From the IMG/VR virus record IMGVR_UViG_2648501165_000004: a DNA stretch of 4,801 bases. One strand, given 5' to 3'. The stretch is from a virus (lineage: Duplodnaviria > Heunggongvirae > Uroviricota > Caudoviricetes). Numbering within the stretch: position 1 is the first letter of the stretch; each line of letters starts with the position of its first letter. Shown here piece by piece: positions 1-738 of this stretch. Under the pieces are notes generated by a model that was given only the letters and a program-made list of their open reading frames with translations, had not been told where the DNA came from and did not search any database. Made by a program: the position numbers and the translations under genes.

Positions 1-738
1 TTAGTCTCCAGGATTTCCGGGGCGGTTCATATTGCTGACCAGTGCGAGATTAGCAAACGTTCTGTGATGAATCATATTGCGGCTCTTTGTGATTCCGGAC
101 TGGTAAAAAAAGTCACCCGGAAAGGTGAAAAAGGTAACTCAAGTAATATCTATCTCCTTCATCTTGATGGTGCAGGAGATTCACTAGGGGGTAGTGCAAA
201 TAATTCACTATCTGGTGCAGCAAATTCACCAGGTAGTGCAGGAGTTGCACCAGGGGGTGGTGCAGGAGATTCACCCAGAACCAGTCACTCTTTTGAACCA
301 GTCAAAGAACCAGTCAATGAACCAATAGCTGTTGGTGCATCTGCTGATGAGTCTGTGCGAGTTCGTTCAAACCGACCGGAATACTCTCCGGAGTTTGAGC
401 AGGCATGGCTGGCATACCCCAAACGTGCTGGTGGCAATTCAAAATCTGCAGCCTTCAAAGCCTGGAAAGCCCGTTTGAATGAGGGGGTAAAACCCGAAAC
501 CATGCTGGAAGGTGTGAAACGCTACGCGGGCTGGGTATCTGCGATGGGTAACAGCGGCACACAATTTGTGAAACAGGCACGTTCTTTGGCCCGGATCGTC
601 ATTTCGAAGAGTCCTGGGAAGTTCCTGCGGTATCTGCAGCCAGACGCGAGGACCCGTACTTCAAAGCCAGTTACGACAACGTGGACTACAGCCAGATCCC
701 GGCAGGATTCAGGGGGTGATCATGAGTCTGTTAAATGA
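1..738 (+). CDS. Phage replication initiator-like protein (O-like), 5'-truncated by the window edge
   Basis: Frame 1 is open from nt 1 with no stop before TGA 736-738, so the gene starts upstream of the window (the track's ATG at 64 is internal). The visible N-terminal segment (ISKRSVMNHIAALCDSGLVKKVTRKG) resembles a winged-helix/HTH region. It is followed by a Gly/Ser/Ala/Asn-rich linker encoded by iteron-like DNA repeats, then a conserved-looking C-terminal domain (EFEQAWLAYPKRAGGNSKSAAFKAWKARL). It sits directly upstream of a nin-like gene block. Family assignment is from memory and not verified. Confidence 0.6.
   Translation, partial: LVSRISGAVHIADQCEISKRSVMNHIAALCDSGLVKKVTRKGEKGNSSNIYLLHLDGAGDSLGGSANNSLSGAANSPGSAGVAPGGGAGDSPRTSHSFEPVKEPVNEPIAVGASADESVRVRSNRPEYSPEFEQAWLAYPKRAGGNSKSAAFKAWKARLNEGVKPETMLEGVKRYAGWVSAMGNSGTQFVKQARSLARIVISKSPGKFLRYLQPDARTRTSKPVTTTWTTARSRQDSGGDHESVK
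169..276. repeat. Five phased iteron-like direct repeats (core GTGCA-N7-CAC) inside the replication gene; putative phage origin
   Basis: 15-mers starting at 171 (GTGCAGGAGATTCAC), 195 (GTGCAAATAATTCAC), 216 (GTGCAGCAAATTCAC), 237 (GTGCAGGAGTTGCAC) and 261 (GTGCAGGAGATTCAC). The first and last are identical, and a perfect 16-bp repeat GGTGCAGGAGATTCAC occurs at 169-184 and 259-274. Spacing is 21-24 bp, about two helical turns. Each unit begins GTG and ends CAC. Confidence 0.5.
278..316. repeat. Three perfect copies of GAACCAGTCA just downstream of the iteron-like block
   Basis: GAACCAGTCA at 278-287, 295-304 and 307-316, with a degenerate fourth copy (GAACCAATA) at 319-327. They encode the EPVKEPVNEP peptide repeat. 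Confidence 0.45.

What the first reader, a model, noticed from the sequence alone, without database searches (positions are those of the whole stretch)
169..276. Iteron-like repeats embedded in the linker-coding region of the replication gene: putative phage ori
Five copies of a 15-bp element with GTG...CAC ends at 21-24 bp phasing lie between the regions encoding the winged-helix segment and the C-terminal domain. In phage lambda the origin (four iterons bound by O) lies inside the O gene in the linker-coding region. The same DNA here encodes a Gly/Ser/Ala-rich flexible linker, so it would serve both roles. The alternative is that this is only a peptide-repeat linker with no DNA-level role.
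Basis: partly seen in the sequence, partly recalled or inferred. Interest (0 to 1): 0.55.

Follow-up and report, generated by a model that had tools for sequence, protein, structure and literature searches.

The report
Replication origin inside phage initiator gene
The five repeats are real and behave as protein-binding DNA sites, most likely a lambda-style replication origin written into the coding sequence of a prophage replication-initiator gene, because in about 80 bacterial species the DNA motif is kept while the peptide it encodes is not; in this particular prophage the initiator gene itself is broken.

Summary
Five 15-bp sites GTGCA-N5-TKCAC lie at 170, 194, 215, 236 and 260, spaced 24/21/21/24 bp; 0.04 are expected by chance. 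They sit in the linker-coding part of a prophage initiator gene (SfV orf39 / ST64B sb42 type: HTH_36 winged helix, disordered linker, C-terminal domain).

Comparison of about 80 species-level loci and 120 viral contigs rejects the peptide-only reading. The same DNA motif is read in two frames (AGDSP or VQEIHQ) and in inverted orientation (ESPAP). The 21-24 bp phasing is kept. The core co-varies with the recognition helix. Copy number varies by whole units.

Directly after the last site lies a 29-bp box, AGAACCAGTCACTCTTTTGAACCAGTCAA (277-305). It is near-invariant in all subfamilies, including 60-65% GC Pseudomonas. Its synonymous positions are frozen, whereas conserved residues of the N-terminal domain use free codons. 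It is also the local GC minimum.

Best reading: a lambda-like intragenic origin, iterons plus an adjacent unwinding or entry element, in an initiator family not detectably homologous to lambda O in its DNA-binding domain. Origin activity is inferred, not shown.

In this window the gene is a pseudogene (IS3 insertion, 4-bp frameshift). I found no published description.

The parts
1..27 (.). End of an IS3-family insertion sequence that splits the initiator gene. It is context, not part of the origin.
   Evidence: Bases 1-27 do not align with any homologue. In the source genome (E. coli OkiPb01711, 100% identical), an IS3-family transposase lies immediately upstream and both gene halves are annotated as partial pseudogenes.
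28..159 (+). 3' part of the winged-helix (HTH_36) DNA-binding domain coding region of the initiator, residues 42-85 of the 272-aa protein. The recognition helix, residues 51-63, corresponds to window 55-93.
   Evidence: Pfam HTH_36, E=1.8e-11, on full-length SfV orf39. PHROG 270 'replication initiation protein', E=1.7e-88. AlphaFold model: H51-63, wing strands 67-73 and 79-85, pLDDT 77-89. Coordinates mapped from the alignment.
170..184 (+). Iteron 1, GTGCAGGAGATTCAC
   Evidence: conserved motif in 43 loci.
194..208 (+). Iteron 2, GTGCAAATAATTCAC
215..229 (+). Iteron 3, GTGCAGCAAATTCAC
236..250 (.). Iteron 4, GTGCAGGAGTTGCAC. Both half-sites are GTGCA, so it matches on both strands.
260..274 (+). 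Iteron 5 (box-proximal), GTGCAGGAGATTCAC. It lies 24 bp after iteron 4 and 2 bp before the box, as in nearly all homologues.
277..305 (+). Conserved 29-bp box AGAACCAGTCACTCTTTTGAACCAGTCAA. It encodes RTSHSFEPV and contains two GAACCAGTCA copies at 278 and 295.
   Evidence: 0-4 mismatches of 29 in nearly all of 82 loci. Synonymous third positions are invariant in 80/80 loci for AGA, ACC, AGT and TCT, while second positions vary. In the same loci, conserved residues of the N-domain use a non-majority codon in 43% of loci. It is the GC minimum of the gene. It was found in at least 120 viral contigs, always in this gene context.
306..328 (+). Further 12-bp tandem copies of GAACCAGTCA: 307-316, and a degenerate copy at 319-328. 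They encode (EPVx)n. Copy number and sequence are less conserved than in the box.
   Evidence: variable. In ST64B, near-identity to the E. coli phages ends at about window 322.
385..738 (+). C-terminal domain coding region of the initiator (DnaD-like / primosomal-type by PHROG). In this window it is frameshifted by a 4-bp deletion after about base 578.
   Evidence: Alignment with 2H10, SfV and ST64B shows 4 bases missing in the window. RefSeq annotates the gene as 'frameshifted; incomplete'. phrog_1701, E=8e-33; phrog_26426, E=3e-63. Helices 162-214 in the model.

Best explanation
Window 170-274 holds five binding sites (iterons) for the winged-helix N-terminal domain of the prophage replication initiator that the same DNA encodes. 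Together with the adjacent conserved box (277-305, extending to about 325), they form the phage's origin of replication. This is the same logic as ori-lambda inside gene O.

Inferred mechanism:
1. Initiator dimers bind the imperfectly palindromic 15-bp cores (half-site GTGCA/GTGAA, flanked by G/C runs). The cores are spaced about two helical turns apart.
2. The resulting nucleoprotein array stresses the neighbouring low-GC box, which opens.
3. The C-terminal domain, which is exchangeable between family members, brings in the helicase or primosome.

The coding capacity of this stretch is secondary. It only has to yield a disordered Gly/Ser/Ala/Pro-rich linker, so the DNA sites can sit in either of two frames or in either orientation.

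Shown here: the sites exist, are non-random, are conserved at the DNA level against the grain of the code, co-vary with the recognition helix, vary in number by whole units, and abut a DNA-constrained low-GC box.

Inferred: binding by the initiator, unwinding at the box, and origin activity.

In this window the initiator gene is dead (IS3 insertion plus frameshift). This copy could fire only if an intact initiator of the same specificity were supplied in trans.
For: 1. Non-random sites: 6 pattern matches (five sites, one also matching on the minus strand) against 0.04 expected.
2. Gene identity: phage replication initiator. PHROG 270 E=1.7e-88, HTH_36, located in the cI-cro-...-rep-dam-rusA-Q early-right operon.
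3. The linker is disordered, so the peptide is weakly constrained.
4. DNA, not peptide, is conserved. Among 195 sites in 43 loci, 31 are in frame 0 (VQxIHQ), 33 are inverted (ESPAP) and the rest are in frame 1. Spacing is always 21-24 bp, and 23+22 where the frame changes.
5. Iteron stretches are 76-89% identical between genera (67-69% in the two Aeromonas loci), while synonymous sites of the N-domain are 29-54% identical.
6. The cores form discrete types that track the recognition helix: SKRSVMNH with GTGCAG, RSTVKxH with GGGGCRG, DRSTVRKH with TGTAGGCC, CSKSAVR with CTGTGCC, SKRSVMRH with GTGACA.
7. Protein length variants of 242-302 aa differ by whole repeat units, as ori-lambda and Stx phages differ with 4 and 6 iterons (PMC7466680).
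8. Box: synonymous positions are frozen in 80 loci against 43% non-majority codons at conserved N-domain residues. It is the GC minimum directly after the GC maximum of the iterons. As a single strand it is less structured than shuffles, z=+1.87.
9. The Microbulbifer locus L044 joins this N-domain, iterons and box to a lambda-O-type C-terminal domain: 42% identity over 78 aa, E=2e-20.
10. The ST64B versus E. coli mosaic boundary falls right after the repeats, so the N-domain and its sites travel as one module.
Against: - There is no experimental evidence of binding, unwinding or origin activity for any member. I found none in the held literature.
- The box is only moderately AT-rich (about 55-60% AT), far less than the lambda AT-rich tract. 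Its sequence-specific conservation is not what a simple unwinding element needs, so its role is a guess.
- No DnaA box or IHF site was seen by eye.
- The N-terminal domain is not detectably homologous to lambda O (hhalign probability 1.3%).
- Co-variation and linkage are partly expected from common descent of adjacent DNA.
- In this window the gene is a pseudogene, so nothing here is functional on its own.
Confidence: 0.78

Rival explanations
1. The repeats are initiator-binding sites, but their main role is regulatory, and the true origin lies elsewhere. Candidate roles are autorepression or a roadblock of the rep transcript, copy-number control or handcuffing, or replicon incompatibility or exclusion between co-resident prophages.
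For: All the comparative evidence for DNA-level binding sites fits this equally well. Plasmid iterons have such dual roles (established knowledge; reviews PMC4980987 and PMC5397158 are listed). E. coli genomes carry up to 4 copies of this module, so cross-talk is plausible.
Against: - The arrangement is the lambda origin arrangement: an array of 3-9 phased sites, immediately followed by a conserved low-GC element, placed between the DNA-binding domain and the recruiting domain.
- A lambda-O C-domain chimera exists.
- No other repeat cluster or AT-rich candidate is seen in the early region of the window.
Confidence: 0.12
2. The repeats are only a peptide-repeat linker, a low-complexity Gly/Ser/Ala spacer, and the DNA repeat is a by-product of recent tandem duplication or slippage.
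For: The stretch encodes a disordered, low-complexity linker. Unit number varies between strains, as slippage-prone repeats do.
Against: - The same 15-bp motif is kept across genera in different reading frames and in inverted orientation, giving unrelated peptides: AGDSP, VQEIHQ, ESPAP.
- It persists in 60-65% GC Pseudomonas, where the flanking synonymous sites are saturated.
- The core is a dyad-symmetric sequence that co-varies with the recognition helix.
Confidence: 0.03
3. The conserved DNA, especially the box, is kept as a homology patch for module exchange between mosaic phages, or for an RNA- or translation-level signal, and not for replication.
For: The box sits exactly at the junction between the conserved N-module and at least five unrelated C-terminal domains. 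The ST64B versus E. coli mosaic boundary is just after it.
Against: - Recombination use does not by itself maintain a sequence over this divergence.
- There is no RNA structure: the region is less structured than shuffles.
- There is no promoter-like site.
- This reading does not explain the phased, helix-co-varying palindromes upstream.
Confidence: 0.07

Closest known systems
ori-lambda inside gene O of phage lambda, and its 6-iteron variants in Stx phages 933W and P27
   Same: - The origin lies in the middle of the initiator gene, in the part that encodes the linker between the N-terminal DNA-binding domain and the C-terminal recruiting domain.
- It is an array of dyad-symmetric sites at about 20-24 bp phasing (lambda sites at 39034, 39054, 39078 and 39101).
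- Copy number varies between relatives and changes protein length (PMC7466680).
- A lower-GC element directly follows the last site.
- The N-domain and its sites are inherited as one specificity module.
- Some members carry a lambda-O-type C-terminal domain.
   Different: - The N-terminal domain is HTH_36/DnaD_N-like, not Phage_rep_O, with no detectable homology to lambda O.
- The iteron sequence is unrelated: GTGCAGGAGATTCAC against ATCCCTCAAAACGAGGGA.
- The flanking element is a sequence-specific 29-bp box at about 42% GC, conserved across all specificity types, not a generic 80% AT tract.
- SfV-type phages have no lambda-P-like gene next to it.
Iteron-type plasmid replicons (pSC101, R6K, RK2, P1, F) with RepA/pi/TrfA initiators
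   Same: Both have directly repeated initiator-binding sites at helical phasing next to an unwinding element, and an initiator with winged-helix DNA recognition. In plasmid DUEs, sequence-specific repeats bound as single strands are known (PMC4081077, listed). This is a possible model for the GAACCAGTCA repeats.
   Different: Plasmid iterons lie outside the rep gene. Plasmid Rep proteins have two winged-helix domains (WH1-WH2), whereas here there is one winged helix plus a disordered linker. No DnaA boxes were seen. Foldseek gives only generic winged-helix matches.
DnaD/DnaB-type Gram-positive phage and plasmid initiators (DnaD_N winged helix)
   Same: There is weak Pfam similarity of the N-domain to DnaD_N (E=3.6e-5, below the cut-off). 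DnaD N-domain 2v79 is among the Foldseek hits. PHROG labels the C-domain 'DnaD-like helicase loader'.
   Different: All scores are below family thresholds. No solved homologue was found by sequence. DnaD itself is not a sequence-specific iteron binder.

Membership tests
Lambda-type intragenic origin (iterons + unwinding element inside the initiator gene) | An array of at least 3-4 direct repeats with internal dyad symmetry, about 15-19 bp each | tested here: met
   Five GTGCA-N5-TKCAC sites. The family consensus is T-R-GTGCAG-S-A-G-M-T-K-CAC-Y-A, with half-sites GTGCA/GTGAA. The box-proximal copy is often the perfect palindrome GTGCAG-GAG-CTGCAC.
Lambda-type intragenic origin (iterons + unwinding element inside the initiator gene) | Located within the initiator gene, between the DNA-binding domain and the C-terminal domain | tested here: met
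   The sites correspond to residues 89-124 of a protein whose residues 1-85 form the winged helix and whose residues 162-214 form the C-terminal helical domain.
Lambda-type intragenic origin (iterons + unwinding element inside the initiator gene) | Phasing of sites near two helical turns, conserved among relatives | tested here: met
   Spacing is 24/21/21/24 in the window. It is 21-24 in 43 loci, and 23+22 where a site is in the other frame.
Lambda-type intragenic origin (iterons + unwinding element inside the initiator gene) | Selection acts on the DNA sequence beyond coding needs | tested here: met
   the motif occurs in two frames and both orientations, synonymous sites are frozen in the box, and codons are free in the adjacent domain.
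Lambda-type intragenic origin (iterons + unwinding element inside the initiator gene) | A strongly AT-rich tract directly flanking the last iteron | tested here: inconclusive
   The 40 bp after the last site are the GC minimum of the gene (0.39-0.45 against 0.5-0.65 in the flanks). They are only about 55-60% AT, and they are conserved as a specific sequence.
Lambda-type intragenic origin (iterons + unwinding element inside the initiator gene) | The initiator binds the repeats and the fragment supports initiator-dependent replication | not testable with these tools
   This needs EMSA or footprinting and an ori-plasmid assay. No report was found.
Lambda O protein family (Phage_rep_O) | Sequence homology of the N-terminal DNA-binding domain to lambda O | tested here: not met
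   hhalign of alignment A2 against lambda O gives probability 1.3%. Pfam assigns HTH_36, not Phage_rep_O.
Lambda O protein family (Phage_rep_O) | A C-terminal (P-interacting) domain of lambda O type | tested here: not met
   The window/SfV C-domain shows no such match. One family member, L044, does have it (E=2e-20), which shows domain exchange, not membership of the window's protein.
Plasmid iteron Rep (WH1-WH2) replicons | A two-winged-helix Rep fold, with iterons outside the rep gene | tested here: not met
   The model has a single winged helix followed by a disordered linker. No Rep_3/RepA Pfam hit was found. The sites are intragenic.
Plain peptide tandem-repeat linker | The peptide repeat is conserved while the nucleotide repeat is degenerate at synonymous sites | tested here: not met
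   The opposite is seen: the nucleotide motif is conserved and the peptide is variable.

The most novel reading that the evidence does not exclude
The HTH_36 'SfV orf39-type' initiators define a large, undescribed class of intragenic phage origins found across Gammaproteobacteria. The class has two layers:
- Specificity-variable palindromic iterons that are free to sit in two frames or either orientation.
- A universal 29-bp box, AGAAYCAGTMACTCTYYTGAAYCAGTCA, whose nucleotides rather than its codons are under selection.

The box would be a new, sequence-specific origin element, for example a defined unwinding or helicase-entry site read as single-stranded DNA. It would be shared by replicons that differ in iteron specificity, in helicase-recruiting domain and in host genus.
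Probability: 0.35. Interest if true: 0.7.

Novelty: new member of a known kind. Interest (0 to 1): 0.5.

Why it matters
- It places the replication origin of a very common prophage family. The family includes SfV, ST64B, cdt-I, mEp460 and the Stx2c-converting phages, and the module occurs in 926 of 5,426 complete E. coli genomes. Replication of such phages drives toxin gene dosage.
- It explains why these 'helix-turn-helix domain-containing proteins' come in lengths of 242-302 aa: the length reflects iteron number.
- It gives a natural table of recognition-helix and iteron pairs that could be used to build orthogonal replicons.
- It is a clean case of dual-use DNA in which the binding-site code dominates the protein code.
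- The universally conserved box is a concrete, testable candidate for a new origin element.

Tried and rejected
- Homology to lambda O: profile comparison negative.
- Pfam and NCBIfam for the C-terminal domain: nothing above threshold. PDB sequence search: nothing. Foldseek against PDB: only generic winged-helix hits with E>=5e-3.
- I thought the ORF after the lambda-O-like chimera L044 looked like lambda P. BLASTP and Pfam say no.
- RNA structure as the cause of the frozen synonymous sites: the box is less structured than shuffles, and the whole repeat region gives z=-1.5, not significant.
- Promoter inside the region: none found.
- DnaA box (TTATNCACA) and IHF consensus: not seen by eye in 160-330.
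- Overlapping ORFs: frame 2, 194-328, and the minus-strand ORFs are mechanical products of the repeats.
- Literature: seven full-text searches, including the motif strings themselves, found no description of this origin. The SfV genome paper (PubMed 11889106) is not held, and the Weigel & Seitz 2006 review was not found, so prior mention in subscription literature cannot be excluded.
- Plasmid records with this module are 38-48 kb phage-like circles. They are suggestive, but they are not proof of autonomous replication.

Full report
**What the window is.** The window matches a chromosomal prophage of E. coli strain OkiPb01711 at 100% identity. It covers the early-right operon of a lambdoid prophage:
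- a replication gene at 1-738;
- Dam methyltransferase at 814-1467;
- RusA at 1464-1853;
- a KilA-N protein at 1840-2682;
- a DUF968/HNH protein at 2684-3679;
- antiterminator Q at 3682-4038;
- AT-rich minus-strand cargo ORFs after that.

The replication gene is the homologue of SfV orf39, ST64B sb42, 2H10 gp42, and the 'replication protein' of phages cdt-I, mEp460 and the Stx2c-converting phages (96-98% DNA identity to the E. coli and Shigella phages, 86% to ST64B). The full-length protein is 272 aa. It has an HTH_36 winged helix at the N-terminus (E=1.8e-11), and it matches PHROG 270 'replication initiation protein' (E=1.7e-88).

In this window the gene is dead. Bases 1-27 are the end of an IS3-family element that splits the gene. 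A 4-bp deletion after about base 578 shifts the frame of the C-terminal domain.

GTGCA-N5-TKCAC occurs at 170, 194, 215, 236 and 260 and nowhere else in the window. Shuffles predict 0.04 matches. Spacing is 24/21/21/24 bp.

An AlphaFold model of the full-length homologue gives a confident winged helix for residues 1-85, with the recognition helix at 51-63 and a beta-hairpin wing at 67-85. Residues 91-156 have pLDDT 30-40. A helical C-terminal domain runs from 162.

Immediately downstream there is a second repeat: GAACCAGTCA at 278, 295 and 307, and a degenerate copy at 319.

**DNA sites or peptide repeat?** I collected 80 loci, one per bacterial species, that encode relatives. I added phage records and 120 viral contigs. 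Five results point the same way.

1. The motif is independent of frame and orientation. Forty-three loci have at least three GTGMA-N5-TKCAC sites in the same place. They come from Shigella phage SfV, Kosakonia, Pluralibacter, Enterobacter, many Pseudomonas, Aeromonas, Shewanella, Marinomonas and others. Of their 195 sites, 31 are read in the other frame and give VQxIHQ instead of xAGDSP. Thirty-three are inverted (GTGAATCTCCTGCAC) and give ESPAP. The phasing stays 21-24 bp. Where a site is in the other frame, the two flanking spacings become 23+22, so the reading frame closes again. One DNA motif therefore gives three unrelated peptides.

2. Synonymous sites behave differently in the two regions. 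Between SfV and these genera, synonymous third positions of the N-terminal domain are 29-54% identical, which is saturated. The three box-proximal iteron stretches are 76-89% identical in most comparisons, 67-69% in the two Aeromonas loci.

3. The core is dyad-symmetric. The consensus is T-R-GTGCAG-S-A-G-M-T-K-CAC-Y-A, flanked by G or C runs. The box-proximal copy is often the perfect palindrome GTGCAG-GAG-CTGCAC.

4. Other subfamilies have different cores that track the recognition helix:

| Recognition helix | Iteron core |
|---|---|
| SKRSVMNH | GTGCAG |
| RSTVKxH (+ RREFRR wing) | GGGGCRG...CYGCCCC or ...ATAACCC |
| DRSTVRKH | TGTAGGCC |
| CSKSAVR | CTGTGCC...GGCA |
| SKRSVMRH | GTGACA...GTCAC |

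5. Copy number varies by whole units. Alleles range from 242 to 302 aa and differ by whole repeat units, roughly 1-2 to 9 copies. This mirrors the 4- versus 6-iteron origins of lambda and Stx phages (PMC7466680).

**The box.** Two or three bp after the last iteron, every locus has AGAACCAGTCACTCTTTTGAACCAGTCAA. Nearly all of the 82 loci have 0-4 mismatches, including Pseudomonas prophages in 60-65% GC surroundings.

- In 80 in-frame loci, the third positions of AGA, ACC, AGT and TCT never vary. Those of CAC, GAA, CCA and GTC vary in 1-5 loci.
- The frequent changes are C/T transitions at first and second codon positions, and they alter the amino acid: Thr to Ile in 24/80 loci, Phe to Ser in 28/80, Phe to Leu and His to Asn in others.
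- In the same loci, 45 amino-acid columns of the N-terminal domain that are at least 90% conserved use a non-majority codon in 43% of loci on average. The invariant Arg19 uses all six codons.

The box is therefore constrained as nucleic acid. It is the GC minimum of the gene (0.39-0.45) and directly follows the GC maximum formed by the iterons. It has no RNA structure and is less structured than shuffles (z=+1.87). In 120 viral contigs it occurs only in this gene context. It lies exactly where the conserved N-module meets unrelated C-terminal domains. I saw at least five types, among them Phg_2220_C and a lambda-O-type domain.

**Mechanism.** The layout matches ori-lambda in three respects:
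- a winged-helix domain whose recognition helix co-varies with phased palindromic sites encoded in the following linker;
- then a low-GC element;
- then an exchangeable recruiting domain.

The Microbulbifer locus L044 carries this N-module, iterons and box fused to a domain 42% identical to the C-terminal, P-interacting part of lambda O (E=2e-20). Nature has therefore used the module as a replacement for lambda O's own N-domain and ori.

I conclude that 170-274 are iterons and that 277 to about 325 is the adjacent origin element, most likely the place of opening or helicase entry. Binding, opening and origin activity are inferences. The role of the box is the weakest step, because its conservation as a specific sequence is more than an unwinding element needs. 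A regulatory role for the sites cannot be excluded.

**Relation to known systems.** By function this works like ori-lambda/O. It is not a member of the lambda O family. hhalign finds no homology of the protein to lambda O (probability 1.3%), Pfam assigns HTH_36 with sub-threshold DnaD_N, and Foldseek gives only generic winged-helix matches. It is not a plasmid WH1-WH2 Rep either. SfV-type phages encode no neighbouring helicase loader. Relatives pair the module with a DnaB-like helicase (ZF40) or with a large Toprim protein (Min27 'P').

**Novelty and limits.** Seven full-text searches, including the motif strings, found no description. Subscription papers are not held (the SfV genome paper) or were not found (the 2006 review of phage replication modules), and they may mention the repeats. 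The idea that a lambdoid initiator gene contains its own origin is textbook, so I rate this a new member of a known kind. The universally conserved, codon-independent box is the part that may be new. The module is common: 926 of 5,426 complete E. coli genomes carry it, and it occurs in 189 phage records. In this window it sits in a decayed prophage, so here it is at most a silent or trans-activatable origin.

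Noticed in passing
window 1-27 (and L086 3762-5027): The window starts with the end of an IS3-family insertion sequence that has split the replication gene. The first 129 bp of the gene lie on the other side of the IS in the source genome.
   Followed up: yes
window ~575-582: There is a 4-bp deletion relative to 2H10, SfV and ST64B (which read GGCTGTCACG). It shifts the frame of the initiator's C-terminal domain, so the long ORF 64-738 ends in out-of-frame sequence. RefSeq calls the gene 'frameshifted; incomplete'.
   Followed up: yes
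window 722-812: A short ORF, MSLLNDVQKFIEAHPGCTSGDIADAF..., is the 5' stump of the PerC-family activator gene (SfV orf40 / yfdN type). The rest is deleted, and the dam gene follows directly at 814. Similarity to SfV-type phages ends at about 799.
   Followed up: partly
window ~322 (alignment A1 column ~417): Salmonella phage ST64B is about 98% identical to the E. coli phages through the N-domain, iterons and box, but only about 80% identical after them. This is a mosaic junction placed exactly at the end of the putative origin.
   Followed up: partly
L044 1501-2355: A Microbulbifer prophage initiator combines this HTH_36 N-domain, three inverted-type iterons (GTGAATCTCCTGCAC) and the box with a C-terminal domain 42% identical to that of lambda O. 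The next ORF is not lambda-P-like.
   Followed up: partly
L031 and L037 (box at locus offsets 395 and 374 from the gene start): In an Erwinia and a Pseudomonas locus, the box is out of frame with the N-domain and the ORF ends early (218 and 133 aa). These are probably frameshifted pseudogenes or sequencing errors. A truncated N-domain-only product is conceivable.
   Followed up: no
P0040, P0042: Rare E. coli alleles lack the last iteron plus the whole box (P0040, 247 aa) or keep a single repeat unit (P0042, 242 aa). If the origin reading is right, these should be replication-defective prophages or assembly collapses.
   Followed up: no
window 4040-4066 and 4051-4801: A GC-stem/T-run terminator (GGGGGAATTACCCCCCTTTTTTT) follows Q. 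After it comes a very AT-rich minus-strand block that encodes a 182-aa multi-pass membrane-like protein with no Pfam match and further small ORFs. It looks like moron cargo between Q and the late genes.
   Followed up: no
window 113-128, minus strand: There is a terminator-like hairpin with a T run on the minus strand inside the winged-helix coding region (TCACCTTTCCGGGTGA + CTTTTTTTAC). The count is no higher than in shuffles, so it is probably chance.
   Followed up: no
L084 (phage Min27) 2001-2669 and 2887 onward: The Stx2a phage Min27 'O' gene belongs to this family. It has three perfect palindromes GGGGCAGGAGCTGCCCC plus the box. It is followed by a large 'P' protein with a Toprim domain and an intein-like Hint segment.
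   Followed up: partly
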